DNA of 64,000 nt from an uncultured Gammaproteobacteria bacterium (GCA_964441335.1 CAYTUI010000001.1:961-64960), one strand, 5' to 3'; numbered from the stretch's first letter, positions 30,876 to 64,000 are shown. Notes: generated by a model not told the origin, from the letters alone. Made by a program: numbers and translations.

Positions 30876-31060
30876 TTGCTGGCTGGTTGGCAGACTGCTT
30901 GGGATGTTAAGCCGGGCTTGTGGGAGGGTCACGTCAGTGACCCTCCCACACCTAATTTTTTAGAAACTTGTTCCCAACAATCGTTGGAGACAAATTTCTA
31001 ACCTTGATTTTTTTGAGGTTATGCACCTTTCCAAGTCAACAACAAACAAGGAGGTAGCCG

Positions 31061-32449: not shown

Positions 32450-32459
32450 TCGTTGAAAG

Positions 32460-32491
32460 CCGCAGGGACGAGCAGCAGCTCGTCCCTGCGG
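32460..32491 (+). terminator. Hairpin terminator CCGCAGGGACGAGC-AGC-AGCTCGTCCCTGCGG
   Basis: 14-bp perfect stem; followed by AT-rich spacer with a second palindrome CCTTGTTTCAAACAAGG. Confidence 0.55.
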
Positions 32492-32600
32492 ACCCAATTT
32501 TGAAATAAAGAATTGCCAGTTTTATAAGTTGTCAGTTCCTTGTTTCAAACAAGGCCAAGTTCTTTGTAAATCTAAGAGATCAAAACCAAGGAGGAAAAAC

Positions 32601-33188
32601 GTGGAACGTACGGTGATTCATAGCGGTTTTTTGCAGCTGGAAGTTGTGGCAACACCACAGGGCCAGAGGGAGCTGGTGCGTACCACTGATTCTCTTTGCC
32701 TGTTGATTTTCGATCAGCTACGCAATCGGCTGATCTTAGTTCGACAGCCGCGGCCTTCACAGATGTCTGAACTCAATCCCGATAGTCCCCTGGCCAATCG
32801 CGAGGGGCTGATCACCGAGTGCTGCGCCGGCCGTTTCGACGGTCGGTATTCTCCGCTGGAGTTGGCGGTCAAGGAAGCCGAGGAGGAAACTGGTATTCAG
32901 GTCAATCCGGAGAATGTCGAGCTGCTGAACGGCGGGCGGCCCATGGCTGTGTCCGCCGGGGTCATCACGGAGTTATCCTATCTGGCGTACGTGAGGATCA
33001 CTTCAGATACCTCCGGTCTCGACCAGAAGTTGCACGGTCGGGCAGATGAGGGTGAGGAGATTCGTCTGGTCAGTCTGGACGCGGATCCTCGTTATCTGCA
33101 GGTGTACTTGGGCGGAGCTTGTCAGGACATTCGTGTCTTCACTCTGCTGCAGTATCATCTCAACAAGATGGAATGTCAGGTGTCCTGA
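32601..33188 (+). CDS. NUDIX hydrolase, ADP-ribose pyrophosphatase-like (start GTG at 32601 after AAGGAGG)
   Basis: Nudix box AGRFDGRYSPLELAVKEAEEETGI; strong SD 7 nt upstream of GTG. ORF track lists 32529..33188. Confidence 0.7.
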   Translation: MERTVIHSGFLQLEVVATPQGQRELVRTTDSLCLLIFDQLRNRLILVRQPRPSQMSELNPDSPLANREGLITECCAGRFDGRYSPLELAVKEAEEETGIQVNPENVELLNGGRPMAVSAGVITELSYLAYVRITSDTSGLDQKLHGRADEGEEIRLVSLDADPRYLQVYLGGACQDIRVFTLLQYHLNKMECQVS

Positions 33189-33212
33189 CAGTTTCCAGGA
33201 GAGGAGTTTTCA

Positions 33213-34838
33213 GTGAGGAGTCTGTATCAAATCGTTCAGCAGATGTTTCCCCTGCAGCGTCTACCCTGGGATGAGTACTTCGCGGCCATGGCGCAGTCCG
33301 ACTTCAAGCTCGGGCGGCACCAGATTCCGGCCACCAAGTCATTCTTTATCAGGTCGGCGCCGTTTGGCGGATCGTTTGCGCTGCTGGGCGGTATTACCGA
33401 AGCCCTACGAACCATCAACGAGTTGCGCTTTGACGCAGATTTCCGGGCGATCATGGAGGAATTCGGCTACGAAGCCGATTTCCTGGACTGGTTGCAATCG
33501 GAAGAACGGTTGAAGGTTCAGGTCTACGCGCCGCCGGAAGGCAGCGTTTTCTTCCCCAGCGAGCCCGTGGTCACTTTTCGTGGGCCGTTGGCGCACATTC
33601 GGCTGGTCGAAGGCATGATGATTGAGGCGCTGAACTTCTCTACCTTGTCACTGACCAAATGGCAGCGACTGGTCAGGGTGGTGCGCCCCGGCTCTGTGTT
33701 GGAGTTCGCTCGTCGGCGATCGCAGCATCATCTCCGATCCTCGCTTTACGGTTTGCTGGCCGGTTGCCGGCAGATCAGCAACAGCGAAGCGGCCCGTCTG
33801 ATCGGCGTAAAGCCGGTCGGTACCATGGGTCATGAGTGGATGCAGTCGTTCGGCGATGTCCGCGAGGCCTTCGATGCCTGGCTCAAGGTCAATCCGCATA
33901 AGCCTGTTGGCTTGGTGGATACCTTGCAGTGTCTGGAGATCGATTTTCCGGCTTGGCTGGAGGCGGTCTACGAGCAGCGCGAGGTTGTAAAGGCCGCTGA
34001 CAGTCCGATCTGGGGCTGGCGCAACGATTCGGGTGACCTTGCCTACCTGACTATTGAGCAGTACATTCGCTTTTGGAAGCATCTGCTGTCTCAGGATCAG
34101 TGGTTTGCCGACCGCATGCACATTGTGCTGACCAACGATCTGGATGAGTACTCTTCGGAGGAAATCATCCAGCAGATTCGTAGCCAGGCCGGAGCCGCCG
34201 GTTTGGATGCCGAGGATCTGCTCCGACGGATCATTTGGGCGGCCGGTACCAAGCCGGGCACCTGCTATGATCAGCCGGCTTTGGGCGGCGTAGCCAAGCT
34301 GATGGAAGTCGATGGTCATGGCTGCATCAAGCTGGCTTTCGATGCCGACGGTAATCCGGGCGCCAAGACCTCGATTCCGGGGTTCAATCGCTCAGCGCTG
34401 ATCCGCGATCGTGATTCCGGTGAAGTTCACTGCCTGTTGATCTATCCGGCCGAGGACACTACTTTCCATCTGTTTGAGCATGATGGAGAAGGTTACTTCG
34501 GTGACGGGCGGAAGGGAGACGCTTGGGAGACCATTACCGCACATCATCCGGACACGCCCGGTTCGGAGCTGCACATCAAGAACTATCTGGTTCAGGGACG
34601 ACAGCAGCTGGTCTTTGATACGATCGATCAGAACGGCCTGACCGACGAGTGGATAGAGGACACTGTACAGTCGGTGGCTGAACGGGTTGTGAGGGAAATT
34701 GATTCCCTGCACTGGACTGTCAGCCGTCTCCGCAAGCCTCATCGGGTCAAGGTCTCTGTCACAGAAGGTCTGTTTGAGCAGCGGACGAATCTGATTCGTA
34801 CCCGCTGTCTGCGAACGGACAAGATGTGGAAGCAGTAG
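33213..34838 (+). CDS. pncB: Nicotinate phosphoribosyltransferase (PncB/NAPRT family, long form)
   Basis: N-terminal DEYFAAMAQ...SFFIRSAPFGGSFALLGGI..AL..L.ELRF and VYAPPEGSVFFPSEPVVTFRGPLAHIRLVE..MIEALNF.TL match type II PRTase NAPRTase conservation. Confidence 0.75.
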   Translation: MRSLYQIVQQMFPLQRLPWDEYFAAMAQSDFKLGRHQIPATKSFFIRSAPFGGSFALLGGITEALRTINELRFDADFRAIMEEFGYEADFLDWLQSEERLKVQVYAPPEGSVFFPSEPVVTFRGPLAHIRLVEGMMIEALNFSTLSLTKWQRLVRVVRPGSVLEFARRRSQHHLRSSLYGLLAGCRQISNSEAARLIGVKPVGTMGHEWMQSFGDVREAFDAWLKVNPHKPVGLVDTLQCLEIDFPAWLEAVYEQREVVKAADSPIWGWRNDSGDLAYLTIEQYIRFWKHLLSQDQWFADRMHIVLTNDLDEYSSEEIIQQIRSQAGAAGLDAEDLLRRIIWAAGTKPGTCYDQPALGGVAKLMEVDGHGCIKLAFDADGNPGAKTSIPGFNRSALIRDRDSGEVHCLLIYPAEDTTFHLFEHDGEGYFGDGRKGDAWETITAHHPDTPGSELHIKNYLVQGRQQLVFDTIDQNGLTDEWIEDTVQSVAERVVREIDSLHWTVSRLRKPHRVKVSVTEGLFEQRTNLIRTRCLRTDKMWKQ

Positions 34839-34970
34839 AGCTGCTACAAGCCGGTGGTCACCAGCAGGTGACCACCGGCCCTTACTTCAGCCTTGTCATA
34901 AAGAAAATGAAAGGGTTGAAGAGAGGCTAGTTCATTCAATGTCTATTCTAAAACCAAGGAGGTGCTCTAA

Positions 34971-35927
34971 ATGAGTTCTGCTCAGCCGATCGCTCACGGT
35001 AGCGGTCAAATGGGGGCGCAGTCTATCTCCATTCAGGTATCCACGCGGGAGCGTTGCAACGCCGGTTGTCGTTTTTGCATTTCGCGAACAACGCCGGGAG
35101 TGGAAACACCGGGCAATCCTCATGAAGTTAAGTTCTGCGATGAGCCGCGTCTGCAGGTCGGGTTGAACTATGCCCGGCAGTTGGGTGCGACGCATGCTAT
35201 CCTGACATCACGAGCTGATCCTTCGCAGGAGGACCCAAGGTATCTGCACCGACTGATCAGTACCAGTCGTCAGTTCTTGCCGCTAGTGGACATGCATACC
35301 AATGGTTTTCTTTGGCTGCCTGGTAAGCCGCAAGCCGATGATCTGTCTATACTGGTGGTTTCGGGTCTGACCATGCTTACTCTGTCGATCGCTTCTTTCG
35401 ATCAAAATCAGAATAGAGAGCTGATGATGATCCGCGAAAGCGGTGCCGGTTTGATCCGTCGGGCTCGGGATTTGGGTCTGCTGGTCCGCTGCTCTTTGGT
35501 TGTCAATTCCCAGGGAGTCAACGATTACCAGGGGGTTATCAACTACATCAAACAGGCCGGCAACCTGGGAGCCCACATGGTGGTCGTTAGAGAAGTCTGG
35601 CGACCGGAAGTGTATGGCGATTTCCAGCCCGAAGTGCTGGACTGGAACAACTGCAACTGGGTGGATATCGGTCCGATCCAGAGTCAGTTTATCCAGGCCG
35701 CCGGCCAGAGGGACAACCCTTACGGCTTGCAGCTTCGTGACCCCTTGCCCTGGGGCACACCGGTTATGGTGATGGGCGGAGTGTTCGACGACCCCAATCA
35801 TGGGGTCAATATCACTTTCGCTCGTTGCGAGGAGGGTACCAGGGGCTCGACCATTAAGAGCATCGTCCATAAGCCCGATGGTCACGGTTATCGCAACTGG
35901 GATCACAACGGCGATATCCTCTACTGA
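34971..35927 (+). CDS. Radical SAM domain protein (CX3CX2C)
   Basis: RERCNAGCRFCISRT cluster-binding motif near N-terminus; no further family assignment possible by eye. Confidence 0.6.
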   Translation: MSSAQPIAHGSGQMGAQSISIQVSTRERCNAGCRFCISRTTPGVETPGNPHEVKFCDEPRLQVGLNYARQLGATHAILTSRADPSQEDPRYLHRLISTSRQFLPLVDMHTNGFLWLPGKPQADDLSILVVSGLTMLTLSIASFDQNQNRELMMIRESGAGLIRRARDLGLLVRCSLVVNSQGVNDYQGVINYIKQAGNLGAHMVVVREVWRPEVYGDFQPEVLDWNNCNWVDIGPIQSQFIQAAGQRDNPYGLQLRDPLPWGTPVMVMGGVFDDPNHGVNITFARCEEGTRGSTIKSIVHKPDGHGYRNWDHNGDILY

Positions 35928-36057
35928 TTAGGTGGAGGACGGGGCATCTGCGTCGGCGCAGATGCCCCCTTTCCCGAGGTCTTATCATCTATAGATAAGG
36001 TCTTAGGAGAGTTCAGTTCTTTAACACGCAACCATCTAAAACCAAGGAGGAGAGGGA

Positions 36058-38082
36058 ATGCTAAAGTCCGAACAGTTTATGGACGTTCGACAGCATGGGT
36101 TTATCCGTTTGGCCGTGATTGTACCCAGAGTTCATTTGGGCAATGTACCGGCAAACGTGGCTGAACATCTGATGAAGATCAGCGAGGTTCGCAGACAAGG
36201 CGCCAGTTATATAGTGGCTCCTGAGTTGAGTCTGACCGGCTACTCCAACGGCGATCTGTTTCATTCACAGGCACTGCTGGAAGCGGCCGTGATCGGTTTG
36301 GGCGAGTTGCTGGAGGCAACGGCAGCCTGGCCGCAGATCATCTCGGTCGGCCTGCCCCTGCTGGTGGACGGCGCGGTCTACAACTGTGCTGTGACCATTC
36401 ATCGGGGCGTTATTCTGGCGGTGGTGCCTAAGGCCTATCCGCCGGAGTATCGCGAGTTTTATGAGCAGCGGCACTTCGCCTCGGCCTATGAGGCTCAGTC
36501 CACTGTTATCAACCTGCTGGGTCAGACAGCTGCTTTCGGAACCGACATTTTGTTGGTTTCGGATCACAACCCGCGTCTGACGATTCACACCGAGGTCTGC
36601 GAAGATCTTTGGGTGCCGATTCCGCCCAGCACTGAGGCGGCTCTAGCTGGCGCAACGGTGCTGGCCAACCTGTCGGCTTCCAATATCACCATCGGTAAGA
36701 GCGGATATCGGGAGCTGTTGGTGGCCGGATCGTCAGCCAAGAATCTGGCTGTGCAGATGTACAGCGCGGCAGGTTTCGGTGAGTCCACGACTGACCTGTC
36801 CTGGGACGGGGAAGCCCTGATCGCCGAGCGTGGCGAAATTCTGGTCAGGGGTCAGCGTTTCAGCCTTGACGGCGGCACTTCAGTTGTGGCCGACGTGGAT
36901 CTGGAGCTGTTGGCACTGGAACGCGCCAGGCAGAATTCCTTCAGGTCAAACGCCAGTCAGCATCCCCGTAAGTTCCGGCGCATCCTGATTACTGGACAGT
37001 TATCTGATGCTGTTCAGGACGGGCTGGAGCAGGTGCATCACAAGTTGCACCGCTTCGTGGATCCGCATCCCTTCGTGCCTAGCGACCAGTCTCAGCGCGA
37101 TGAGCGCTGTCGGGAAACTTTCCTGATTCAGGCAACGGCTTTGGCCAGACGGCTGGAACAGCTGCCACAGGATCGTCGGCACGTGGTGGTGGGTATTTCC
37201 GGTGGACAGGATTCAACGCACGCGCTCAACGTGGCGGTCCATGCTATGGATCTCATGAAGATGCCGCGTCGCAACATCCTGGCGGTAACCATGCCGGGGT
37301 TCGGCACAACCGACCTGACAAAGAACAATGCCGTGGCATTGGTCAAAGCGGTCGGCGCTGAACTGCTGGTGATTCCCGTTAGTGAACTGTCGCTCCTGAT
37401 GTTCCAAAACATCGGGCATAATCCGGATGAGCACGACCTGACCTACGAGAACGTTCAGGCTTGGGCCCGGATGTATACGGAGCTGTCATTAGCTGCCGAG
37501 AAAGGAGGGTTGGTACTGGGGACTGGTGACTTGTCGGAGCTGATGCTTGGCTGGTGTACTTACCTGGGTGATCACGCCAGTCATTATGGTATCAACGCCG
37601 GTGTGCCCAAGACTCTTATTTCCTATCTGATCGCCTGGACCGCAGAGCAGGTCTATGGAGAGAAGGAACCGGAAGTTAGGGGTATTCTGCAGAGCATTCT
37701 GGTAACTCCGATATCACCGGAGCTCTTACCACCGGCGGCTGACGGTTCTATAGCGCAGAGAACGGAAGACAAGGTTGGACCATATGAGCTGCATGATTTC
37801 TTCGGTTATTACTTCGTTCGCTTTGGTTTCAGCCCCAAGCGCATCGTGCGTCTGGCATTGGCTGCCTTTGGCGACAAGTACTCCATCGGAGAGATCAAGT
37901 CTTGGTTCAGGCTCTTCCTGACTCGTTTCTTCCGGAATCAGTTCAAGCGATCTTGTTTGCCCGATGGTCCCAAGGTAGGTCTGACGTGCATCTCGCCTCG
38001 CGGTGACTGGCGGATGCCCTCGGATGCTGACCCGACTGTTTGGCTTCAGGATCTGGAGCTGGTACCGGACAACCTCAACTAG
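36058..38082 (+). CDS. nadE: Glutamine-dependent NAD+ synthetase NadE (nitrilase-like glutaminase domain plus NAD synthetase domain)
   Basis: N-terminal CN-hydrolase fold (IVAPELSLTGY, ...CEDLW); C-terminal PP-loop VVGISGGQDST and long 674-aa architecture like actinobacterial NadE. Confidence 0.9.
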   Translation: MLKSEQFMDVRQHGFIRLAVIVPRVHLGNVPANVAEHLMKISEVRRQGASYIVAPELSLTGYSNGDLFHSQALLEAAVIGLGELLEATAAWPQIISVGLPLLVDGAVYNCAVTIHRGVILAVVPKAYPPEYREFYEQRHFASAYEAQSTVINLLGQTAAFGTDILLVSDHNPRLTIHTEVCEDLWVPIPPSTEAALAGATVLANLSASNITIGKSGYRELLVAGSSAKNLAVQMYSAAGFGESTTDLSWDGEALIAERGEILVRGQRFSLDGGTSVVADVDLELLALERARQNSFRSNASQHPRKFRRILITGQLSDAVQDGLEQVHHKLHRFVDPHPFVPSDQSQRDERCRETFLIQATALARRLEQLPQDRRHVVVGISGGQDSTHALNVAVHAMDLMKMPRRNILAVTMPGFGTTDLTKNNAVALVKAVGAELLVIPVSELSLLMFQNIGHNPDEHDLTYENVQAWARMYTELSLAAEKGGLVLGTGDLSELMLGWCTYLGDHASHYGINAGVPKTLISYLIAWTAEQVYGEKEPEVRGILQSILVTPISPELLPPAADGSIAQRTEDKVGPYELHDFFGYYFVRFGFSPKRIVRLALAAFGDKYSIGEIKSWFRLFLTRFFRNQFKRSCLPDGPKVGLTCISPRGDWRMPSDADPTVWLQDLELVPDNLN

Positions 38083-38088
38083 AGGTTT

Positions 38089-38131
38089 GACCCCGCCCCA
38101 ACACTTTTGTGTCATGGGCGGGGTCTTTTTT
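38089..38131 (+). terminator. Rho-independent terminator closing the GC-rich NAD island
   Basis: GACCCCGCCC-loop-GGGCGGGGTC followed by TTTTTT. Confidence 0.7.
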
Positions 38132-41418: not shown

Positions 41419-42245
41419 TGATTGTGAAACACGGAGACCGGCAATTCGAAGCCGGTCGTCTGGTGGCCGATAACGGCCGTTATCGCCAGTATCTCTGCGT
41501 GGAGATTGGCGCTGACAAGGAAAAGGAGTGTTTGTTGCAGATCGCCACCGCTACCAATGGTAACGGTCAACTCGATCGGGCAGCCTACTTCCTTCAGGAA
41601 CTTGAGCGTCGAGCTCGCGAAGTGGAGAAGGAGTTCAAGAAGGTCAGAACCGATCCCAAGGTGATGCTCAATTACGGGCTGGGCTTTCCCAAGCTGGTTG
41701 ACAGCTTCGTCTGTCAGGAGCAGGGCGGCCGCCGTATCAACATCCTGGCTTTCAGACGCGTTGATCAGGTTGGTCAGATGATCCCTTTGAGTAGTGTGAT
41801 CAAAAGCAACCTGATGATTGACCGTCGTACTAGCGTCTGGATTCTGGGAAAGCTTCTCAAGCTGTTGACTTTTAGTCACAGTGAAGGGATTGCTGTCGGA
41901 CGCCTGGACGCTGACAACATTCTGCTTCAGCCGAATCAGCACTACGTGGTGTTGTTTGACTGGTCGGAAGGAAGTCAGTATCCGGAAAAAGTGCCTGCGG
42001 AAATCGCCTGTCAGGAGATCACTCAAGCTGCCATATCAGTTATGGCCGCCCTGTACTATGATCCGGAGTCTGGGAAATTCCCTGACGATCCGGATGATCC
42101 TGACGATCGTTATGTCAAGCACCTGATGACTCTGGCTAAAGGTCAGGAGCATCGGGCGGATCAGGCTCACCAGGAATTCTACAAACTGGTTGACACTATC
42201 TGGGAAAGGAGATTCTACCCCTTTACGACTCGACCGAAGTTCTGA
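41419..42245 (+). CDS. APH/ChoK-like (aminoglycoside-phosphotransferase-fold) small-molecule kinase-like protein, GC-rich
   Basis: Catalytic-loop-like GRLDADNILL and metal-binding VVLFDWSEG (IDWE-type) motifs; start ATG 41419 after AAAGGAGG. ORF track lists 41310..42245. Confidence 0.5.
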
Positions 42246-42288
42246 AGCTACGCTACGTTAGACCAACGAAAGAAGGAGGACGAGTACT

Positions 42289-43452
42289 ATGGGACGCGAT
42301 ACCTTGTCTCGTGATGCCTTTACCAGAGTCAGCTCGTTGGCGACGAGGGGTGGCAGGAAAGCCACTCACGATGCTGAAGAGCAAGTCAGACAAGGCAAGG
42401 GTATTGATCCCCTTGTTGATCCGAAAGGGCCGTCTCATCTCGGTCCGATTCGTAGGTCGCTGCCGCGTTTTGAGAAGCAGAAGTCGCTTTGGCGATTGGT
42501 GATGAACATGCCGATGGCCGAGGAGACCCTGCTGGATACGACCGGTTCTATGCAACAAAACGTGGAGCTGGCGTTCGCGGCGTTGCCGAAGTCGTTCGGG
42601 ATGTACACCGAAGGATCTTGTCCGGTACTGGGTAGATACGATGTCCAGATCGCCACCGGAATCTTCAACGACGTCGACGATCTTGATGCAAATCCGTATG
42701 CCCAGGTCCTGTGTCGTTCGCAGTTTGAAATGGGCGAGAAGATCGCCTTGCAGATGACTCGGATGATCCCGGGACGCAACGGCTGCGGCAACTTCAAGGA
42801 GGATTCACAGTTTGGGCTGTTCGGAGCCGCCTATCTGACGGATGCCAGGATCACGAAGTACGGCCTCAGGACCTATCATTTCACGGTGTCGGACGAGCCG
42901 ACCGTGGAAACGATCGAACTGGGCTGGCTGAAGAAGATCTTCGGCGACGACGTGCTGGAGCGAACGGCCGAGAACGGCTGGGACTTCACCGCGCGTACTC
43001 TGCCGGACACGGCGCAGGCAGTTCGTGACCTGCAGACGCGGGCTCACGCCTTCTTTCTGCAAGTTCCGGGTTGGCATGATGAACGCAGGGTCACGAATCA
43101 GTGGACCGAGCTTTACGGCCCGGCTCATTTCGTGATGCTGCCCGGCGGGACTGAGTATGTGCACGCTGTCAAGGGCTGCATCATCGGTCTGACCGAGGGT
43201 GTTATCAGTCTCTCGTCGGCCAAGGACTTCCTGCGCGAGCATGGGGTTCCGGCTGACGCGGCTGCCAAAATCGTCCGCGCAGTCGCGCATATTCCTCTGG
43301 CAGCGCAGACCCTGGCTCCGAACTTCGACAAGCTGCCGAAGGTTGGGGATCTCTTCAAGGAAAAGACCGACCTCTGGCCGGTTGATCCCCAAGAGGTGCC
43401 GGAAGCGACTGTTGAAGACAAGGACAAGGGCGAGGAGACCGAGTGGCTGTAG
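42289..43452 (+). CDS. von Willebrand factor A (vWA) domain protein, TerY-like
   Basis: MIDAS motif LLDTTGSM after a ~70-aa N-terminal extension; strong SD GAAGGAGGA. Confidence 0.55.
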   Translation: MGRDTLSRDAFTRVSSLATRGGRKATHDAEEQVRQGKGIDPLVDPKGPSHLGPIRRSLPRFEKQKSLWRLVMNMPMAEETLLDTTGSMQQNVELAFAALPKSFGMYTEGSCPVLGRYDVQIATGIFNDVDDLDANPYAQVLCRSQFEMGEKIALQMTRMIPGRNGCGNFKEDSQFGLFGAAYLTDARITKYGLRTYHFTVSDEPTVETIELGWLKKIFGDDVLERTAENGWDFTARTLPDTAQAVRDLQTRAHAFFLQVPGWHDERRVTNQWTELYGPAHFVMLPGGTEYVHAVKGCIIGLTEGVISLSSAKDFLREHGVPADAAAKIVRAVAHIPLAAQTLAPNFDKLPKVGDLFKEKTDLWPVDPQEVPEATVEDKDKGEETEWL

Positions 43453-43498
43453 CTCCTTAACCTGACAACCGTAAATCCTAAACCAAAGAGAGGTGACT

Positions 43499-44884
43499 AT
43501 GACCAAGAAGGTCTACCTGGTCACCGATCTCGGTCCTGGAGACGGTGGTAAAGGTGGAGTGGTACACAAAGTCTCCAAGCTGATGCGTGCCCACACCATC
43601 ATCAAGGTTGGGGGTGCGCAAGGAAGCCATGGAGTCAGAACCTCAACAGGCGAACACTTCGCTTTCAGCCAATGGGGTTGCGGCACATTCGAGGGGGTGA
43701 GGTCTTACCTCTCCCCTCGGATGGTCGTTTCCCCGGAAGGGCTACTGAACGAAGCTGACGTTCTCCGCTACCGCTGGGGTATTTATAACCCCTTTGATCT
43801 ACTGATAGTGGACCAAAGGGCGTTGTGTGCCACGGCGTATCACGGGATTGCTTCGCGTCTAAAAGAAATGGCGCGCAAGGATAATCCCCGTGGCACGATC
43901 GGTACCGGAGTTGGCGAGGCTTACCGCGCTGCACAGCGGTTCCCTGATCTGGCGATTTATGCCCGTGATCTAAAACGGGCTGATCTGCGAGATCGGTTGG
44001 CCGTTGTTAGGCAACAACAGCAACAGGAATTGGCGCCGATCATAGCGGCGGAGTTTCTGCTCTATGATCAAGACGCCGTCGCCAAGGAAGTTAGTTGTCT
44101 GTTTGATGACGACTTCCTGGATTTCGTCGTTAGGCGGTTCCAAGAAGTATCCCAAAGAGCAACCATTGTTGACCAGGACTATCTGGGACGGGAAATCCTG
44201 TCCCGAGACGGTGTGGTCGTCGTGGAAAGCTCGCATGGGGTGCTGACTGATCACTACGCCGGGTTCCATCCGCACACCAGCGCCATTCGGACATTGCCTT
44301 GTTTCACCGAGGTGATGCTCCGGGAGGCTGGTTACAACGGACCAATCATCAACCTCGGGGTAACCCGAGCCTATCAGATACGCCACGGCGCAGGTCCGCT
44401 GCCAACTGCTGATCCAGCGTTGTCAGAGAATCTGTTGCCCGGCAGTCACAAGCAGGACAATCGTTACCAGGGCCAGGTTCGCGTTGGACCTCTGGACTTG
44501 GTGCTACTGCGCTACGCTCTGGCGGCTTGCGGCGGTCCAACTAGTTTTGATGGTTTGGCCATTACCTGGTTTGACCAGATTCAAGCTAATGGAGTTTGGC
44601 GTTTCTGTGACCGTTACCAAGGCAGTGACGACCCGACCTACTTCACGCCGTCCGGTGAGTTGCGGGTGCGGTTCGGAGCTGATGAAGAGCAGTTGTCCTT
44701 TCAAGAAAATCTCGGGCGTCAGCTTGGCAGTTGTCGTCCGGAGATTACTACCCAAGATATCCCGACGAGCATGGGGCGTGATGATCTGTATGATCTTTGC
44801 GCCAATACTCTGAAGGAGAAACTGGGTGTCCCTGTTCGCATGGTTTCGTTCGGTCCGACCGAGCGGGACAAAGTCTGCAAGTAA
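43499..44884 (+). CDS. Divergent adenylosuccinate synthetase (PurA)-like enzyme
   Basis: Alignable with PurA: P-loop TDLGPGDGGKGGVV (vs GDEGKGK), GGAQGSHGV (vs QGGHNAGHT), PRGTIGTGVGEAY (vs IGTTGRGIGPAY), VVESSHGVLTDHYAGFHPHTSA (vs [22 protein letters not shown]), TRAYQIRHGAGPLP (vs KAYSTRVGAGPFP). Confidence 0.65.
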   Translation: MTKKVYLVTDLGPGDGGKGGVVHKVSKLMRAHTIIKVGGAQGSHGVRTSTGEHFAFSQWGCGTFEGVRSYLSPRMVVSPEGLLNEADVLRYRWGIYNPFDLLIVDQRALCATAYHGIASRLKEMARKDNPRGTIGTGVGEAYRAAQRFPDLAIYARDLKRADLRDRLAVVRQQQQQELAPIIAAEFLLYDQDAVAKEVSCLFDDDFLDFVVRRFQEVSQRATIVDQDYLGREILSRDGVVVVESSHGVLTDHYAGFHPHTSAIRTLPCFTEVMLREAGYNGPIINLGVTRAYQIRHGAGPLPTADPALSENLLPGSHKQDNRYQGQVRVGPLDLVLLRYALAACGGPTSFDGLAITWFDQIQANGVWRFCDRYQGSDDPTYFTPSGELRVRFGADEEQLSFQENLGRQLGSCRPEITTQDIPTSMGRDDLYDLCANTLKEKLGVPVRMVSFGPTERDKVCK

Positions 44885-44913
44885 ATGCGTGAACGCGAAA
44901 GGAGATAGTGCAG

Positions 44914-46083
44914 ATGAGTGAAGATCGGGAAGGAACGCGGCAAATTTCCGCGGGTGATGCTATCGCTTTGTTGCTCACCGACCACGGCTTGGAAGCCGCG
45001 GTTATCGACAAGATCAAGACCGATCTGGGCGCCGCTACCGTTGAGGATTTGTCGGCGCTGACCGAAGCCGACCTCGTCGGTATCGGCATGAAGAAGCTGC
45101 CGGCTCGCAAGCTGGTGGCGGATCTGAAGCCGGTGGAGGTTGCTCCGACACCTGCGGCCAGTCCGGTCAGTACCATGTCCTTCGATTCCATCCTGCCCAA
45201 CGTCCCTACGGACTCTTCCTGGCTGGAAGCGCTTCGGACGGGCGGTGTTCTCAAGGTCGATCAGTCCACCGTCATCGGCGCCATTCGGGCGGCCTTGGCT
45301 CACAAGGCCAGGCTGTATGACATCCCGGACGGGCTGGTGACCATGTTGGAACGGTTCGCCGAGGAGAACGAGGAACAGGTGGACGTCGAGTTCTTCAAGT
45401 TGAAGAAGCAGCTGACCCGCCGAAACTACGCCGAGATCTTCTCGGCCATCGAAGGGCTGGACGGCAGCTACGTGACCGAGGGTCGGAAGAAGCAGCTGTT
45501 CGGTCGCATCGACGAGCATCTCTGGCCGTCGATCGAAACCTTCTACGGCCAGTTGAAGGGCTGGCAGGAGGCTTGGCTCCAGGGCGGGGCCAATCCGATG
45601 ATCATGATGAGCGCGATCATGGCGGCTTCGGGCGGCGGCGCGGGTGTCATGCCTCCCGGCGTGATGCAACCGCCGGATACCGGGGGGCTCCGTGATCATG
45701 CCGACGCCGTGGCCGACGCCATCAACAAGTGCTTCGCTGGCACTGGCGTGCAGATCGCGTCGGCTTTGGCCTACGATGCCACCAAGATCCGGGAGACGTT
45801 GGAGAACCCGCGTCTGCCGGCACTGGTCGGAGCTGCCAACCGCGATCAGATGCTCCGGCAACTGGGAGTGGCCGTTTCGGCCACCTACCCGCGGCTGGAG
45901 ACCAATCTGACCCGCTTCGTCCTGTCGACGTTGCAGGTCAAGGACCAGGCGGCCGGCACCGAGGAGCTGCAGTACTTCAGCTCCCTGTTCATGCTCGGGT
46001 CGCAGATCCCTTGGGATCAGCTTGGTAACAAGCGTCCCAGTGGCAAGCTCTCGGGCATCGGCGTCACGAGGCGCGACCTCTAG
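44914..46083 (+). CDS. Hypothetical protein, last gene of the GC-rich 4-gene operon
   Basis: ATG 44914 with SD AAAGGAG; 389 aa, Ala/Gly-rich, no recognisable motif; followed by terminator. Confidence 0.5.
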   Translation: MSEDREGTRQISAGDAIALLLTDHGLEAAVIDKIKTDLGAATVEDLSALTEADLVGIGMKKLPARKLVADLKPVEVAPTPAASPVSTMSFDSILPNVPTDSSWLEALRTGGVLKVDQSTVIGAIRAALAHKARLYDIPDGLVTMLERFAEENEEQVDVEFFKLKKQLTRRNYAEIFSAIEGLDGSYVTEGRKKQLFGRIDEHLWPSIETFYGQLKGWQEAWLQGGANPMIMMSAIMAASGGGAGVMPPGVMQPPDTGGLRDHADAVADAINKCFAGTGVQIASALAYDATKIRETLENPRLPALVGAANRDQMLRQLGVAVSATYPRLETNLTRFVLSTLQVKDQAAGTEELQYFSSLFMLGSQIPWDQLGNKRPSGKLSGIGVTRRDL

Positions 46084-46111
46084 ATCCAACGCGGTTCTGG
46101 AGTAACCTTGG

Positions 46112-54965: not shown

Positions 54966-55556
54966 TCAATCAGCATCGTTAGAATTATTTCGGTCTTTTA
55001 GCCAATTAATCGGGTTATTTTTAATGTACATACGAATTTTATATAGAGATTCTTCATTCCGTATAATATGATCGTGGAATCGCGATTGCCAGAATTGTCG
55101 TCCGAGGGTGCCGCGGTGCTGGTTAATGCGGCGGGCCGAAAATGTTTTAAAACCGCGAATTATTTCTGATACCGAATAGCGCCCGGTTGGGTAATCGTTG
55201 AAATGACGTTGATTTAATGCAAAACCCGTGGAGGCGGGTTTGAAACCCGCCTCTACAGGACGCCGGTTGCAATTATACCGGGCGTTAATGCGGATTATTC
55301 CATGAACGTGGTTCGGCATTATGACAAATGCGTCCAATCGGCAATCGCAATAATGTTTTGTTAAATCACGCCAGCATTTTTTCACGATTTGTCCCAATGG
55401 TGATAGTTGCATTTTACCGTTAACAATTTGTCCTAAATCGCAGATTCTGTTTTTGACGCAAATGGTTATAAAATAATATCCTTGATTTGAATAATCCCAA
55501 TATGGTAAACGTGTTGATTCGATTCTATATCTGCCTAGGTATTTTGAATATTTCAT
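54966..55556 (-). mobile_element. IS200/IS605-type Y1 (HuH) tyrosine transposase, RAYT/YafM-like, carrying an in-frame GTAG+hairpin (REP-like) insertion
   Basis: HuH motif MPNHVHGII and C-terminal FWQSRFHDHIIRNEESLYKIRMYIKNNP (YafM-like catalytic region). Perfect palindrome GAGGCGGGTTT-G-AAACCCGCCTC + CTAC at 55231-55256 lies inside the reading frame. Gene sits between topA and dprA. Confidence 0.75.
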
Positions 55557-60127: not shown

Positions 60128-60501
60128 TTGACACAAATCTCAATTTATGATAGCTTCGGCTGTTAACCTTTGGTTCTTATATCTACTCGCCAGGCAGTGA
60201 TGGAAATGACACCCCCTCCTTGTTGTTGAAATCATTGCGCTAAGGCCGCGGTCTTCATGGCTTTAGGTCTTGGCTTTTGCTGGTGGGTAGTTATAAGTGT
60301 CAGAGGTTTTTATTTTTGTTAATTTTTATTACTTCATTAATGACATTGAAGTTGGAAAATTAAGACGGAAAATTATTAAACTGAGAATAGATTATTTGTA
60401 ATTTTGGGTTGACTTTTTCCAAAAAAAGGAGTATAATTAATCAATAAGACTAAATTTTGTGGATAATTGAGAACACAAAATAATACTACGCGAGCGCACC
60501 C

Positions 60502-61170
60502 ATGGCGCCTAAAAGAAAAACTTTATCAGCACTAGTTATTATCTCGACACTGATGTTGATGGTTTTTTTTAATTTTCCATGGTTACGGACAGTCTGGGCG
60601 GTCAACACCACTACTTTATCCCAGACGATTAATGCGGGCACCTTAGCGGTTAGTATTGTTGATGGCGATGGTAACGCGGTAGGGTCTCCGGCAGTTGCTT
60701 TTGGAGCCTTGGCTTTTTCTTTTGATGCCGCCACTACAACAGCTACATTAGGCACAGCATCGGAAAAGATTCGTTTATCAAATCCCACTGCTACTGCCGC
60801 TTGGAGTGTGACTTTGGCCGGCAGTGCTCCGACCGCAGTCTGGACTGACGGAGGCAGTAATACTTTTGACTTTAATGATTCTGCTTGGTCGCAGGATGGA
60901 GCAGATGACGATACTAAAGGTGGCAGGTTAGCTGTAGATCCTTCTGCCGGTACCATCACTGGTGTTAACGGTTGTGCCACCACCAATACTTCCCTAGGGT
61001 CTTCATCGGCCTTTGTGGAAACATCCAATAATTCTATCACCTTATTTTCCTCCACCACAGCTGCTACTTATTGTCGTTTTGAGTTGATAGATGTGTCCTT
61101 GTCACAAGCTATACCGGCGGCTCAACCAGCGGCAGTTTATACCTTGGGCTTGACACTGACCGCTAGTTAA
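60502..61170 (+). CDS. Secreted Thr/Ala/Ser-rich cell-surface protein, WxL-domain-like (small)
   Basis: Signal peptide; domain shared with C-terminus of the 62723.. protein (TL[AS]VSIVD[GA]DG..VGSP.V, TLG.AS.KIR). Confidence 0.5.
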   Translation: MAPKRKTLSALVIISTLMLMVFFNFPWLRTVWAVNTTTLSQTINAGTLAVSIVDGDGNAVGSPAVAFGALAFSFDAATTTATLGTASEKIRLSNPTATAAWSVTLAGSAPTAVWTDGGSNTFDFNDSAWSQDGADDDTKGGRLAVDPSAGTITGVNGCATTNTSLGSSSAFVETSNNSITLFSSTTAATYCRFELIDVSLSQAIPAAQPAAVYTLGLTLTAS

Positions 61171-61275
61171 AATAATTTGATGAAGAGAGATATTTGACGC
61201 AGCAGTAATGCGGCGTTTTAATTTGTGGCAGAGCTGAATAGATGGTATAATTTATGAGTTAATAGCTATATTTAA

Positions 61276-62700
61276 ATGACAGAAAACTCAAGAAATTTTT
61301 TTATAAAACGGCACTGGATCATCTATTCGCTGATAATTATTTTTTCATTATTAATATCTAACGCCAGTATTGTTCGGGCTCTGGATTATGGCGGTATTGG
61401 TGGTAGGCCGGCGACTTCTGATCCGAATGTTCAAAACTCACAGAGCTGGTTTATTTATAATTTGGCGGCCAAAACTCAAAAGCAAGATGTTTTGATTGTG
61501 GTCAATTCCACCAATGAAGAACAGGAAATAATGGTTTATCCGGCCGACTCCACGCCCTCTTCTGACGGGGCGTTTGCTTTGAAACAAAAAACTGAAGCCA
61601 TGACCGATATCGGTAGCTGGATTAAATTATATCCGTCCGAAGCTGTCTTTGCAGATGAGGCGGTTTGGAAAGCGCTGTATCCTAAGGAAGCTGATTCTAA
61701 GTCTATTATTGATCGATGTTCGATTATACAGTTGGGCGCTGGTGATTTAGCCAAGTCATTGGAAGTGGTTGAGTCGCTCAAAGGAAAAAAAATATCTGCT
61801 GTGGAAATAGCTTACCTGACAGCTTTAGTTCCCTGGTGTCAGGGAGTCAGCGAATATACTTTTAAATTAGCGTCGAACACTCAAACAGAACTACCTTTTG
61901 TTATTAGTATTCCGGAGACAGCCGATGTGGGGGAGCATACCGGCGGTATTATGGTACAGAAAGTTGAAGCTCAACAGGTTCAGGGCACCGGCATCGCTTT
62001 AACTACCAGAGTGGGTGTCAGGGTTTATGAGACTGTTCCGGGTGAACAAATCTCCAAAATTACCTTGGGTAATTTTAATTATACCTATGATGTGGTCAAA
62101 AAATCTTATTCATTTTCTGTAGCTGTGAAGAATGAGGGCAATGTCGGTAAAGATGTTTTAATTACTTTGCATATTATTAATAAGTTGACAGGTCAGGAAG
62201 TTATATTAGACCAAGGCAAGAAGTCAACTTTTGAACGACCGTTGCAAGTTATGCGTAATGATCAGTTGATTTCTAATTTTGAATGGCAGGCGCCTGTCTT
62301 TGGCTATTATCAGGTGCGGGCGGAAGTATCTTACGATGATAATGGTCAGGCGATGACTTTAAATACCAGTGATTTAATAATCATTGTTGTACCTTGGCTG
62401 TATGTAGGAGCGATATTAGTTTTGATGGTTTTAGTCGTAGTTATTATTATATACAGAAAATCCCGATATCGTCAGAAGGTTAAGAAACATCAGTGGAAAC
62501 AGTATCGCATGAAAAAAGATGTTTCGCTGATGCAGTTGGCCCGCGTTTCCGGTGTTAACTGGAAGACCTTGGCTAAGGTCAATAAAATTAGGAAGCCATA
62601 TTTTGTCGAGGCTGGTCAAACTGTTAAACTGCCCGCGGTAGCTGTTAAACCAAAAGCGCGAAGGTCAGCGACTGGGGTTAAGAAAACGAAACGCCCATAG
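61276..62700 (+). CDS. Cell-surface protein, DUF916/DUF3324-like, with C-terminal TM anchor and LysM domain
   Basis: Signal peptide, long beta-rich ectodomain, TM helix (VVPWLYVGAILVLMVLVVVIIIY), C-terminal LysM (DVSLMQLARVSGVNWKTLAKVNKI...GQTVKLP). Confidence 0.55.
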   Translation: MTENSRNFFIKRHWIIYSLIIIFSLLISNASIVRALDYGGIGGRPATSDPNVQNSQSWFIYNLAAKTQKQDVLIVVNSTNEEQEIMVYPADSTPSSDGAFALKQKTEAMTDIGSWIKLYPSEAVFADEAVWKALYPKEADSKSIIDRCSIIQLGAGDLAKSLEVVESLKGKKISAVEIAYLTALVPWCQGVSEYTFKLASNTQTELPFVISIPETADVGEHTGGIMVQKVEAQQVQGTGIALTTRVGVRVYETVPGEQISKITLGNFNYTYDVVKKSYSFSVAVKNEGNVGKDVLITLHIINKLTGQEVILDQGKKSTFERPLQVMRNDQLISNFEWQAPVFGYYQVRAEVSYDDNGQAMTLNTSDLIIIVVPWLYVGAILVLMVLVVVIIIYRKSRYRQKVKKHQWKQYRMKKDVSLMQLARVSGVNWKTLAKVNKIRKPYFVEAGQTVKLPAVAVKPKARRSATGVKKTKRP

Positions 62701-62722
62701 CTTAACTCATTTTTGTTTAACC

Positions 62723-64000
62723 ATGGAGGAGTGTTGGCAGAAAAAATTTTCATTCAAGTTAGTCAAAGTCACTGCTGTGGCTTTGATTGTTTTTATGATT
62801 TTAAGTCAGTGGGGGAGAGTTGTTTTTAATATTTCATATTACGAACTGAAGAAAGTTCAAGCGGTGGCGACTGATAATTTTATTGCTTTTTGGGCTGGAG
62901 GATCCGCACCAACTGACTGGACTATTATTTCCGATGATGTAGGAGAAGATTTTTATCAGAAATTTCCCCGCGGTGCCTCCACCTATAGCAGTACTGGCGG
63001 AGCCACCATTCATAGTGATCATACTATCACCCGTGTCTCAGTTGCCGCGCAGTCCGCCTCTCCACTCACAAAAACTGCTGGGGCTGTTAGTCAAGCGAGC
63101 AAAGCTCATACCCATGGCACAATTTCCAGCACTACAATGGGGTCAGGAACTTTACTGCCGGTTTACCGGGATATTGAGGTGATTAAGTATAACTTAACAG
63201 GAACTCCTACTGTGATTCCTTCGGGAGTCATACTGATGTTTGATGCCGCCCAATCAGCCCCGTGGTCTAGGTATACAGTGCAGGACGGAAACTTTATTTA
63301 TGGTGCCGCCGATGTCTCAGGAACAGGCGGTAGTGCCACCCATACCCATGGGAGTGTGGGTTATACTGTGGACGCATCTTCTGGCGCCAATACTTTAGCT
63401 TGTGTCACTTGCGCTGGTTCGGGTTCGTTTAATCCTCATACACATACTGTATCAGGTAAGACAACAGCATCAGGCGATCATACACCGCCTTACATGGATG
63501 TTCTGCTTTATCAGGCAACGACGGATACTACTTTGCCTGATGGCGCAATTGCTATGTGGGACGCGACTCCGGCAGATACTAACTGGACAGTCAATTCTGG
63601 CGCCTCGCAGACGTTTAACGGAAAATTTTTACGTGGTACTGCAAGCTATACAGGCACGCCGGGAGGAAATTCAGCACATAACCATAGTAATTTATCAAGC
63701 GCTACAAGCGGGTCAGTAGAAGGAGCTAATTATGCTGATCAGTCTACGTTTGGTGGCGCGACTTCAAATCACACACACACCGCTGTTGTTTCTTTTGGTA
63801 ACTCCAATAATTTACCGCCGTATATTGATGTGATTATGGCCAAATACACGGCGCCGCCGGCTGGTACGTTATCAGTCTCAATCGTTGATGCTGACGGCGT
63901 TGATGTCGGTAGTCCGTCTGTTACTATGGATGCGGGAGAATATTCTTTCGTTTACCAAACTGTCAGTGGCACGCTGGGAGCAGCTAGTCAAAAAATCAGA
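62723..64000 (+). CDS. Large surface protein (partial, runs off window end) with about 50-aa repeats each carrying an H-T/N-H motif and a WxL-like domain
   Basis: Open frame from ATG 62723 with no stop to end of window (absent from ORF track because incomplete). Repeats KAHTHGT, SATHTHGS, NPHTHTVSG, SAHNHSN, SNHTHTAV. 3' part homologous to 60502 protein. Confidence 0.6.
   Translation, partial: MEECWQKKFSFKLVKVTAVALIVFMILSQWGRVVFNISYYELKKVQAVATDNFIAFWAGGSAPTDWTIISDDVGEDFYQKFPRGASTYSSTGGATIHSDHTITRVSVAAQSASPLTKTAGAVSQASKAHTHGTISSTTMGSGTLLPVYRDIEVIKYNLTGTPTVIPSGVILMFDAAQSAPWSRYTVQDGNFIYGAADVSGTGGSATHTHGSVGYTVDASSGANTLACVTCAGSGSFNPHTHTVSGKTTASGDHTPPYMDVLLYQATTDTTLPDGAIAMWDATPADTNWTVNSGASQTFNGKFLRGTASYTGTPGGNSAHNHSNLSSATSGSVEGANYADQSTFGGATSNHTHTAVVSFGNSNNLPPYIDVIMAKYTAPPAGTLSVSIVDADGVDVGSPSVTMDAGEYSFVYQTVSGTLGAASQKIR

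What the first reader, a model, noticed from the sequence alone, without database searches (positions are those of the whole stretch)
60502..64000. Cell-surface protein cluster resembling WxL/DUF916/DUF3324 (Csc-like) loci, with an H-T-H repeat protein
The cluster holds a small secreted WxL-like protein, a DUF916/DUF3324-like TM protein with LysM, and a large protein. The large protein's N-terminal part is built of about 50-aa repeats each carrying (A/T)H(T/N)H(G/T/S) motifs and ends in the same WxL-like domain as the small protein. Regularly spaced HxH motifs are known metal-coordinating features of some phage tail-fibre and adhesin beta-structures. A Csc-like adhesion complex would be relevant for an epibiont attaching to host cells.
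Basis: partly seen in the sequence, partly recalled or inferred. Interest (0 to 1): 0.5.

Follow-up and report, generated by a model that had tools for sequence, protein, structure and literature searches.

The report
Cell-surface anchor cluster with phage-fibre head
An uncultured groundwater bacterium of the ultra-small Patescibacteria group carries a very divergent version of the WxL/DUF916 cell-surface protein cluster known from lactic acid bacteria, and its large subunit displays a three-part histidine-motif module related to the receptor-binding tail fibres of phages, which makes it a concrete candidate for how such bacteria attach to other cells.

Summary
The three genes are real and lie at the stated coordinates. 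The window cuts the third gene. An identical public contig completes it at 560 aa.

The middle protein passes Pfam's threshold for DUF916. It has a C-terminal membrane helix and then a borderline LysM. DUF3324 was not detected.

The small protein and the last 180 aa of the large protein are 56% identical. Neither they nor any of 90 relatives match Pfam WxL directly. Their profile does match, at 97% probability and over the full length, small proteins that pass the WxL threshold and also flank DUF916 genes. This is therefore a divergent WxL cluster, and it recurs across Patescibacteria.

The "about 50-aa repeats" are really three units of about 110 aa, each with two His-x-His motifs. The unit has no Pfam family but is common, with 2,583 cluster representatives. 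It almost always comes in threes or sixes. It is homologous to one-unit tail-fibre genes in prophage-like contigs and to three-unit tail proteins Pas28 and Pas29 of phage phiAsp2.

Best reading: a membrane-tethered WxL complex displays a single-chain, probably metal-clamped, phage-fibre-like binding head. The adhesin role and the metal binding are inferred, not shown.

The parts
60409..60437 (+). Promoter-like site (TTGACT-17-TATAAT) upstream of the small gene
   Evidence: 11 of 12 consensus matches at L001 9134-9162, which is window 60409-60437. This is a consensus match only. The region as a whole had 21 sites against 13.6 expected.
60502..61170 (+). Small secreted protein, 222 aa: N-terminal hydrophobic signal-like segment (aa 5-29) followed by one WxL-like domain
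   Evidence: ORF. Hydrophobic segment. 104 homologues, all Patescibacteria where named and none with a Pfam domain. AlphaFold2 mean pLDDT 91.6, all-beta.
60634..61167 (+). Divergent WxL-type domain of the small protein (aa 45-222). First motif W101-S-V at 60802-60810. Y213-T-L at 61138-61146 stands in place of the second WxL motif.
   Evidence: hhalign of the family profile A1 against four small proteins, of which two pass the Pfam WxL threshold: 97.1%, E 4.9e-11. W101 and Y213 are conserved in at least 90% of 91 sequences.
61276..62700 (+). Membrane-anchored DUF916 protein, 474 aa: signal-like N-terminus, DUF916 domain with an insertion, a second beta-rich region, a transmembrane helix, a basic stretch, and LysM
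61411..61599 (+). Pfam DUF916 / WxLIP_PGBD match (aa 46-108, profile positions 6-68 of 121)
   Evidence: PF06030, 29.9 bits against a threshold of 27.3, E 6.2e-7. Compared with shorter homologues such as L009_348, an insert of roughly 60-80 aa follows, so only the first half of the profile aligns (sequences).
62392..62463 (+). Transmembrane helix (about aa 373-396), followed by the basic stretch RKSRYRQKVKKHQWKQYRMKK
   Evidence: Peak mean hydrophobicity 3.13 over aa 362-398. Sequence.
62527..62634 (+). LysM-like domain (aa 418-453), C-terminal to the membrane helix
   Evidence: PF01476, 20.5 bits against 20.9. NCBIfam ActS/NlpD LysM region, E 1.4e-8. Most homologues carry PF01476.
62723..64000 (+). 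Large protein, first 426 of 560 aa. The gene would end at window-equivalent position 64405, outside the window.
   Evidence: Translation. Full gene at L001 11448-13130. L001 is identical to the window over this stretch.
62858..63190 (+). HxH unit 1 (aa 46-156). Motifs HSDH at 63011-63022 and HTH at 63107-63115.
63203..63517 (+). HxH unit 2 (aa 161-265). Motifs HTH at 63341-63349 and HTH at 63437-63445.
63521..63847 (+). HxH unit 3 (aa 267-375). Motifs HNH at 63677-63685 and HTH at 63770-63778.
63860..64000 (+). Start of the C-terminal WxL-type domain of the large protein (aa 380-560, cut by the window end)
   Evidence: 56% identity to the small protein over 181 aa, E 3e-53.

Best explanation
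This is a Patescibacteria version of the WxL (Csc-type) cell-surface complex.

Shown or strongly supported:
- The locus encodes one DUF916 membrane protein and two proteins that share a divergent WxL-type domain. One is the bare domain. The other carries it at the C-terminus.
- The arrangement is conserved in several Patescibacteria lineages.
- The N-terminal two thirds of the large protein is a module of exactly three homologous units of about 110 aa, each with two His-x-His motifs. The unit is homologous to phage tail-fibre or receptor-binding proteins.

Inferred mechanism:
- All three proteins are exported.
- The DUF916 protein stays in the membrane through its C-terminal helix. It holds the WxL-type domains of the small and large proteins at the cell surface, probably by adding a beta-strand to their pilin-like beta-sandwich, as AlphaFold2 predicts for the Firmicutes proteins.
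- The three units of the large protein fold together as a single-chain mimic of a fibre trimer. At each of two levels, one HxH from each unit supplies the six histidines of an octahedral metal site, as in trimeric phage fibres.
- This rigid head binds a ligand on another cell or on a polymer.
For: Cluster identity:
- DUF916 is above Pfam's threshold.
- The small protein and the large C-terminus are 56% identical.
- Profile A1 against the small proteins of L009/L007: hhalign 95.6% and 97.1%, full length. Two of those four score 28.8 and 26.6 bits on Pfam WxL against a threshold of 25. The other two score 22.5 and 13.5. The 489-aa large protein of L010 scores 30.7. All flank a DUF916 homologue of the window protein.
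- Controls gave 0.07% and 0.6%.
- The WxL cluster definition in PMC10599100 (one WxLIP plus two WxL proteins in adjacent genes) and the small/large architecture in PMC9772566 both fit.
- A small gene sits next to a DUF916 gene in 6 of 6 loci that hold the small-protein family: L001, L011 (Komeilibacteria), L012, L016, L017, L018.
- The shared domain sits at the C-terminus of many unrelated N-terminal regions in homologues, as expected of an anchor module.

Fold:
- The model of the small protein has pLDDT 91.6.
- This is compatible with the DUF916 strand-insertion model in PMC10599100.

HxH module:
- Exactly three units, or 2x3, in every complete protein examined. 143 of the 150 best of 2,583 hits in an exhaustive HMMER search have 3 or 6 matched stretches. 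The exceptions I inspected were split units or a fragment.
- Units at the same position in different proteins are more alike than units within one protein: 40% against 31%.
- The second HxH is invariant in 25 of 25 units.
- The unit profile scores 44-69 bits on one-unit proteins of 177-235 aa, encoded by 2-3 tandem genes after a tape-measure gene in IMG/VR contigs. Two of these proteins match PHROG 8469, 'tail fiber protein'.
- Foldseek against viral models: Pas28 and Pas29 of phage phiAsp2 at E 3e-14 and 5e-13, and a 'Phage tail collar domain containing protein' at 5e-6.
- Pas29 is annotated as a possible receptor-recognising protein with HXHY motifs. Pas28 and Pas29 each hold three units with four HxH per unit.
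- Three symmetry-related HxH motifs form the octahedral iron site in R-pyocin fibres, T4 gp37 and the P2 spike (PMC6116203).
Against: - No family member matches Pfam WxL directly.
- The second Trp-x-Leu motif is replaced by Tyr-x-Leu.
- DUF3324 was not detected.
- There is no LPxTG partner.
- LysM lies after the membrane helix and a strongly basic stretch. By the positive-inside rule it should be cytoplasmic, which does not fit a peptidoglycan-binding role.
- In the AlphaFold2 model of the three-unit module only the cores are confident (about 90). All segments that carry the HxH motifs have pLDDT below 50, and the alignment had only 9 sequences. Convergence of the histidines on one axis has therefore not been seen.
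- tblastn of the module against 50,697 phage genomes found nothing.
- Pfam's tail collar family does not match.
- No experiment or expression data bear on surface location, metal content or ligand.
Confidence: 0.6

Rival explanations
1. Fibre or pilus reading. The small protein is the major subunit of a surface filament that polymerises by donor-strand complementation. The large protein is the tip adhesin, with a binding head plus a pilin-type domain as in FimH. The DUF916 membrane protein is the base or assembly platform.
Confidence: 0.2
2. Polymer-capture reading. The complex binds and holds environmental polysaccharide or cell-wall debris for uptake, as first proposed for Lactobacillus plantarum Csc clusters. 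The HxH module would act as a lectin-like domain rather than a cell-cell adhesin.
For: The Csc clusters were first proposed to act in carbohydrate utilisation (abstract of PMC1534035). WxL proteins of Lactobacillus brevis bind cellulose and xylan (title and abstract of PMC9026416). Phage fibre tips commonly bind glycans. The organism is from groundwater and its lifestyle is unknown.
Against: No glycoside hydrolase, transporter or sugar-metabolism gene adjoins the cluster. Nothing distinguishes a free polymer from a cell-surface glycan as the ligand.
Confidence: 0.15
3. The His-rich region is low-complexity, disordered spacer sequence with chance HxH motifs, and the gene adjacency carries no functional meaning.
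For: The region is rich in T, A, S and G (48% together). Nearly half of the AlphaFold2 model has pLDDT below 50.
Against: 0 of 20,000 shuffles reproduce the motif count. There are invariant columns across 25 units, position-specific conservation and 2,583 homologous cluster representatives with a strict three-unit count. The cores have pLDDT about 90. Homology to phage fibre proteins is significant. Synteny holds in 6 of 6 loci.
Confidence: 0.03

Closest known systems
WxL / Csc cell-surface gene clusters of Lactobacillales, Listeria and Enterococcus (small WxL, large WxL, WxLIP = DUF916-DUF3324-TM; PMC9772566, PMC10599100, PMC1534035)
   Same: The three-part layout is the same. It has a small exported protein that is only the domain. 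It has a large protein with the same domain at its C-terminus and a variable N-terminal region. It has a DUF916 protein with a signal sequence and a C-terminal membrane helix. The genes are adjacent and co-directional. The first motif region aligns: a hydrophobic residue at W-10, Gly at W-1, then W-x-L.
   Different: The domain is too divergent for Pfam WxL. Tyr replaces the second Trp, and the Asp/Arg pair before the first motif is replaced by Asn/other. In Firmicutes the small and large WxL domains are said to differ in structure, whereas here they are 56% identical. No DUF3324 match was found. The DUF916 domain carries an insert of roughly 60-80 aa. A LysM domain follows the membrane helix, and longer relatives add a second helix and a LytR_C domain. 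There is no LPxTG protein. In its place is a conserved membrane-anchored protein of about 465 aa with Cys-rich DUF4215 repeats. The host is a Patescibacterium from groundwater, not a gut Firmicute.
Phage tail fibre or receptor-binding proteins with HxH metal sites (T4 gp37, T4 gp12, R-pyocin fibres, P2 gpV; PMC6116203) and tail proteins Pas28/Pas29 of Actinoplanes phage phiAsp2
   Same: The HxH motifs are conserved at fixed positions. The unit is homologous to one-unit phage tail-fibre proteins, and there is fold-level similarity to proteins annotated as tail collar proteins. Pas28 and Pas29 also carry three tandem units in one chain, with equal numbers of HxH per unit.
   Different: The classic fibres are homotrimers of one chain, whereas here three diverged units sit in one polypeptide. 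The module is not in a virion protein. It is fused to a cell-surface anchor domain of a cellular gene cluster with no phage genes nearby. Each unit has two HxH motifs, against four in Pas28 and Pas29. Pfam's tail collar family (PF07484) does not match.
Donor-strand-complemented pilins (archaic chaperone-usher CsuA/B, CupE, type 1/P pilins, TasA, archaeal cannulae)
   Different: There is no sequence similarity (9-15% identity), no chaperone or usher gene, and no evidence of polymerisation.

Membership tests
WxL gene cluster (as defined in PMC10599100) | Adjacent genes with at least one DUF916-containing WxLIP protein and at least two WxL proteins | tested here: met
   One DUF916 protein lies between two proteins that share one domain. 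That domain is linked to WxL by hhalign at 97.1%. The result depends on accepting the remote WxL homology.
WxL gene cluster (as defined in PMC10599100) | Small WxL protein = signal sequence plus a single domain of about 180 aa. Large WxL protein = C-terminal WxL domain after other domains. | tested here: met
   The 222-aa protein has a hydrophobic N-terminus and one domain. The 560-aa protein carries the domain at aa 380-560, after the three-unit module.
WxL gene cluster (as defined in PMC10599100) | LPxTG sortase-substrate protein in the cluster (frequent, not obligatory) | tested here: not met
   No LPxTG-like motif near any C-terminus in the five cluster proteins.
Pfam WxL domain (PF13731) | Score at or above the gathering threshold (25 bits) | tested here: not met
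   No match at E<=1 for the small protein or the window part of the large protein, none at E<=10 for the full large protein, and none at E<=1 for any of 91 family members.
Pfam WxL domain (PF13731) | Homology to sequences that do pass the threshold | tested here: met
   Of the four small proteins in A5, L009_195 and L009_193a score 28.8 and 26.6 bits, while L007_193 and L009_193b score 22.5 and 13.5. The large protein L010_489, which is not in A5, scores 30.7. hhalign A1 vs L009_195: 95.6%. A1 vs A5: 97.1%, E 4.9e-11, 151 aligned columns. Controls 0.07% and 0.6%.
Pfam WxL domain (PF13731) | Two conserved Trp-x-Leu motifs on adjacent strands | tested here: inconclusive
   The first Trp (W101) is conserved in at least 90% of sequences, within the consensus G-W-T-L. 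At the second position Tyr (Y213, at least 90%) replaces Trp.
Pfam WxL domain (PF13731) | Non-covalent binding to peptidoglycan or the cell wall | not testable with these tools
   Needs a binding assay.
WxLIP (DUF916-DUF3324-TM protein) | DUF916 / PGBD domain (PF06030) above threshold | tested here: met
   29.9 bits against 27.3. Many homologues carry PF06030. L009 and L007 homologues score 56 and 52.5 bits.
WxLIP (DUF916-DUF3324-TM protein) | DUF3324 / HBD domain (PF11797) following DUF916 | tested here: not met
   No match at E<=1, and none among the precomputed domains of 120 homologues. A beta-rich region of similar size (about aa 240-370) occupies that place.
WxLIP (DUF916-DUF3324-TM protein) | N-terminal signal sequence and a single C-terminal transmembrane helix | tested here: met
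   Hydrophobic segments at aa 8-37 and 362-398. Unlike the Firmicutes proteins, 78 further residues with a LysM follow the helix.
Phage tail collar domain (Pfam PF07484) | Profile match | tested here: not met
   No Pfam match at E<=10 for the 560-aa protein. None for the one-unit viral homologues, Pas28/Pas29 or ten other family members.
Phage tail collar domain (Pfam PF07484) | Fold similarity to proteins annotated with the domain | tested here: inconclusive
   Foldseek: 'Phage tail collar domain containing protein' E 5e-6, probability 1.0. Further tail-collar and MdpB entries only at E>0.1. A Pas28 unit matches PHROG 1800, 'tail collar fiber protein', at 1.2e-6. The query model is only partly confident.
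HxH metal-clamped trimeric phage fibres (T4 gp37 type) | Conserved His-x-His motifs | tested here: met
   The second motif is invariant in 25 of 25 units. The first His of the first motif is conserved in at least 90%. Chance is excluded.
HxH metal-clamped trimeric phage fibres (T4 gp37 type) | Three copies of each motif meet on a three-fold axis and bind Fe or Zn octahedrally | not testable with these tools
   The HxH segments have pLDDT below 50. Indirect support comes from the strict three-unit count and equal motif number per unit.
HxH metal-clamped trimeric phage fibres (T4 gp37 type) | Homotrimer of one chain that is part of a virion | tested here: not met
   Here three diverged units lie in one chain of a cellular protein. 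No phage genes lie in the neighbourhood.
Chaperone-usher or donor-strand pili | Pilin-type incomplete beta-sandwich | tested here: inconclusive
Chaperone-usher or donor-strand pili | Dedicated chaperone and usher genes in the locus | tested here: not met
   None among the Pfam assignments of the 19 genes in L001.

The most novel reading that the evidence does not exclude
Patescibacteria have taken a phage receptor-binding fibre tip and fused its three protomers into one chain, giving a single-chain pseudo-trimer held by two six-histidine metal sites. They mount it on their own surface through a WxL-DUF916 anchor and use it to recognise and hold the cells they live on. The same un-annotated three-unit module, present in thousands of giant surface proteins in metagenomes, would then be a general host-recognition device of these bacteria.
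Probability: 0.3. Interest if true: 0.8.

Novelty: new variant of a known kind. Interest (0 to 1): 0.6.

Why it matters
- How ultra-small Patescibacteria recognise and attach to partner cells is largely unknown. Type IV pili are the main system studied so far.
- This locus gives a defined three-protein candidate, with an anchor, a partner and a binding head, that can be expressed and tested.
- It extends the WxL/DUF916 system far beyond Firmicutes. The reviews read here report that over 91% of known WxL sequences are in Firmicutes. Current Pfam models miss this branch.
- It also brings to light a large family with no Pfam model: 2,583 cluster representatives of a phage-fibre-related unit that obeys a strict rule of three.
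- That family is a natural test case for the idea that a trimeric, metal-clamped fibre tip can be converted into a single chain.

Tried and rejected
**Searches that found nothing**
- Direct Pfam and NCBIfam scans of the small and large proteins.
- Pfam on all 91 small-protein relatives: no WxL.
- Profile searches of both domains against PDB sequences: only noise, E>0.07.
- tblastn of the three-unit module and of a one-unit viral homologue against 50,697 phage genomes.
- Literature searches for WxL plus Patescibacteria, tail collar plus Patescibacteria, and phiAsp2/Pas29: nothing relevant.

- The AFDB fold library, the natural test for WxL, was not available.
- With the single protein, the genome scan returned only two loci.

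**Weak or uninformative results**

**Ideas considered and rejected**
- The locus is a prophage remnant. Its neighbours are housekeeping genes (mfd, dprA, topA, relA, pth, der), and its GC content (0.43-0.44) matches the genome background.
- The 190-aa ORF on the minus strand at 60486-61058 is a gene. It lies wholly inside the small gene and is an Ala/Val-rich shadow frame.
- The repeats are about 50 aa long.


Full report
**What is there.** The last 3.5 kb of the window hold three co-directional genes. They lie downstream of a divergently oriented mfd gene and of a near-consensus promoter-like site at 60409-60437.
- Gene 1 (60502-61170) encodes 222 aa.
- Gene 2 (61276-62700) encodes 474 aa.
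- Gene 3 starts at 62723 and runs off the window.

An exact-protein look-up found the same contig in several groundwater metagenome assemblies. Locus L001 is identical to the window over 60502-64000. It shows that gene 3 encodes 560 aa. Gene 3 is followed without a gap by a 467-aa protein, which has Cys-rich DUF4215 repeats, a Big_13-like region and a C-terminal membrane helix. A 92-aa membrane protein comes next. Ordinary housekeeping genes surround the locus, and its GC content matches the genome background.

**The organism.** It is not named. The closest named relative of the cluster is a Candidatus Komeilibacteria genome, at 71% identity for the small protein and with the same four-gene order. 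All named homologues are Patescibacteria.

**The middle protein.**
- It matches Pfam DUF916 (WxLIP_PGBD) at 29.9 bits against a threshold of 27.3, over the first half of the profile. Alignment with shorter homologues shows that an insert interrupts the domain.
- It has a signal-like N-terminus and one strong membrane helix at about aa 373-396.
- After a very basic stretch comes a LysM-like domain. Pfam scores it 20.5 bits against 20.9. An NCBIfam ActS-type model gives E 1.4e-8.
- Of 120 listed homologues, most carry LysM, many carry DUF916, and the long ones add LytR_C. None carries DUF3324.
- In a long homologue the LysM sits between two membrane helices. The LysM is therefore predicted to face the cytoplasm, which is odd and unexplained.

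**The shared domain.**
- The small protein, after its signal-like segment, and the last 181 aa of the large protein are 56% identical, E 3e-53.
- The family is widespread in Patescibacteria, with 104 relatives found, and none carries a Pfam domain.
- In other proteins the same domain closes many unrelated N-terminal regions, which is the behaviour of an anchoring module.
- Direct Pfam scans of all 91 aligned members gave no WxL match.

The link came through context. A distant DUF916 homologue of the window protein (P0248) is flanked by proteins of 193-195 aa and followed by a 489-aa protein. Three of these proteins pass the Pfam WxL threshold of 25 bits, at 28.8, 26.6 and 30.7. The profile of the window's family aligns to these small proteins over the full domain. 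The hhalign probability is 95.6% against a single sequence and 97.1% (E 4.9e-11) against four sequences. Two composition-matched controls scored 0.07% and 0.6%.

The first WxL motif region lines up, with a hydrophobic residue at W-10 and G-W-T-L. At the second motif a conserved Tyr stands in place of Trp. I conclude that the domain is a divergent WxL domain. It is homologous, but outside the current Pfam model.

**The cluster.** Two papers define the WxL cluster as a small WxL protein, a large WxL protein with the domain at its C-terminus, and a DUF916-DUF3324-TM protein, in adjacent genes (PMC9772566, PMC10599100). The window locus has that layout. Every one of six loci holding the small-protein family also has an adjacent DUF916-family gene.

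The differences from the Firmicutes clusters are these:
- no detectable DUF3324;
- no LPxTG protein;
- a LysM tail on the DUF916 protein;
- small and large domains that are close paralogues, not structurally distinct;
- a conserved fourth gene of another kind.

No paper in the searchable library links WxL to Patescibacteria.

**The His-motif region.** It is not a series of 50-aa repeats. It consists of three homologous units of about 110 aa (aa 46-156, 161-265 and 267-375). Each unit has a conserved start (I-P-x-G-x-I-x-x-F/W-D ... P-x-G-W), a G-T-G-G-x-x-T-H-x-H segment, a second H-T-H about 32 residues later, and an N-L-P-P-Y-I-D-V-I ending. Twelve of the 13 histidines lie in the motifs, and chance is excluded.

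The rule of three holds everywhere I looked:
- Every complete homologue has three units or two sets of three.
- An exhaustive HMMER search of 1.84 billion representatives found 2,583 proteins at E<=0.001, and 430 at E<=1e-30.
- Of the best 150, 143 have 3 or 6 matched stretches. The exceptions I read were split units or a fragment.
- Units at the same position in different proteins are more alike than units within one protein, 40% against 31%. The triplication is therefore old and position-specific.
- No Pfam family covers the unit.

**Relation to phages.**
- Two IMG/VR contigs encode two or three tandem genes for proteins of 177-235 aa that each hold one unit. The unit profile scores 44-69 bits on them.
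- Two of these proteins match a PHROG tail-fibre family. In one of the contigs (L013) the genes follow a tape-measure gene and lie near an integrase.
- Foldseek of the partly confident model of the window module (pLDDT about 90 in the cores, below 50 in the HxH segments) against viral models returned Pas28 and Pas29 of Actinoplanes phage phiAsp2, at E 3e-14 and 5e-13. It also returned a tail-collar-domain protein at 5e-6 and a tail fibre at 5e-3.
- Pas29 is annotated as a possible receptor-recognising protein with HXHY motifs.
- Both Pas proteins contain three tandem units with four HxH each. One Pas28 unit matches the PHROG 'tail collar fiber protein'.

**Mechanism proposed.** In solved fibres, three symmetry-related HxH motifs form one octahedral iron site (PMC6116203; PMC11705849). 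Three observations fit a single-chain version of such a trimer with two metal sites:
- the strict count of three units per module;
- the same number of HxH motifs in each unit of a given protein, two here and four in Pas28 and Pas29;
- the existence of one-unit phage genes in tandem.

This is inference. The model does not resolve the histidine segments. The module would be the outward-facing binding head. The C-terminal WxL-type domain would tie it to the DUF916 membrane protein and the wall, alongside the small protein. What it binds is unknown. A partner-cell surface is the attractive guess for a Patescibacterium, and a free polysaccharide is the main alternative.

**Verdict.** It is wrong on DUF3324 and on the repeat anatomy, and it is untested on function. 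The locus is a new variant of a known kind of system, in a lineage where the system has not been described. It carries a passenger module from a large, un-annotated, phage-related family.

Noticed in passing
window 30000-38100 and 42000-46100: Two islands have GC 0.55-0.59 against a background of about 0.40. The first encodes an NAD salvage and synthesis set: cytidylyltransferase-like plus NAD kinase, NUDIX, nicotinate phosphoribosyltransferase, a weak radical SAM match, and CN-hydrolase plus NAD synthase. The second includes adenylosuccinate synthetase. tRNA-Pro and tRNA-Asn lie between them. They look like horizontally acquired metabolic islands.
   Followed up: partly
window 62464-62700 (tail of the 474-aa protein): The LysM domain lies after the membrane helix and a strongly basic stretch. 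In long homologues (e.g. P0175) it sits between two membrane helices, with LytR_C after the second. Its predicted location is cytoplasmic, which is unusual for a LysM.
   Followed up: partly
L001 13131-14823 (just beyond the window end): A fourth and a fifth cluster gene. The fourth encodes a 467-aa protein with Cys-rich DUF4215 repeats (33 bits against a threshold of 27), a Big_13-like region and a C-terminal membrane helix. It is conserved in the Komeilibacteria locus (27% identity, E 6e-42). The fifth encodes a 92-aa membrane protein. The 467-aa protein occupies the place where Firmicutes clusters have an LPxTG protein.
   Followed up: partly
proteins P0269 and P0271: In some relatives, a unit of the three-unit module is interrupted between its two HxH motifs by a long Gly-rich insert (GGxGG-type repeats). 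These proteins also carry DUF2341-like and fibronectin-like regions. The module tolerates large insertions at that point.
   Followed up: no
L013 4839-6804 and L014 4857-5933 (IMG/VR contigs): Two or three tandem paralogous genes each encode one HxH unit behind a conserved N-terminal A-W-T-x-P ... W-N motif. They lie in a temperate siphophage-like tail module. They could form hetero-trimers, a possible intermediate between homotrimeric fibres and the single-chain three-unit form.
   Followed up: partly
L019 and L020 (one 492-kb metagenome contig, Ga0172379_10000007): Two giant proteins, more than 2,100 and more than 2,500 aa, each carry one three-unit module that is 57-62% identical to the window's. 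They lie about 47 kb apart on the same contig. Many other hits in the big search are 2,000-6,800 aa long.
   Followed up: no
window 60486-61058, minus strand: A 190-aa Ala/Val/Pro-rich ORF lies entirely antisense to the small-protein gene. It is most likely a shadow frame and not a gene.
   Followed up: no
window 54966-55556, minus strand: A 196-aa protein with a weak Y1 transposase (PF01797) match overlaps the start of dprA by 4 bases and sits next to topA.
   Followed up: no
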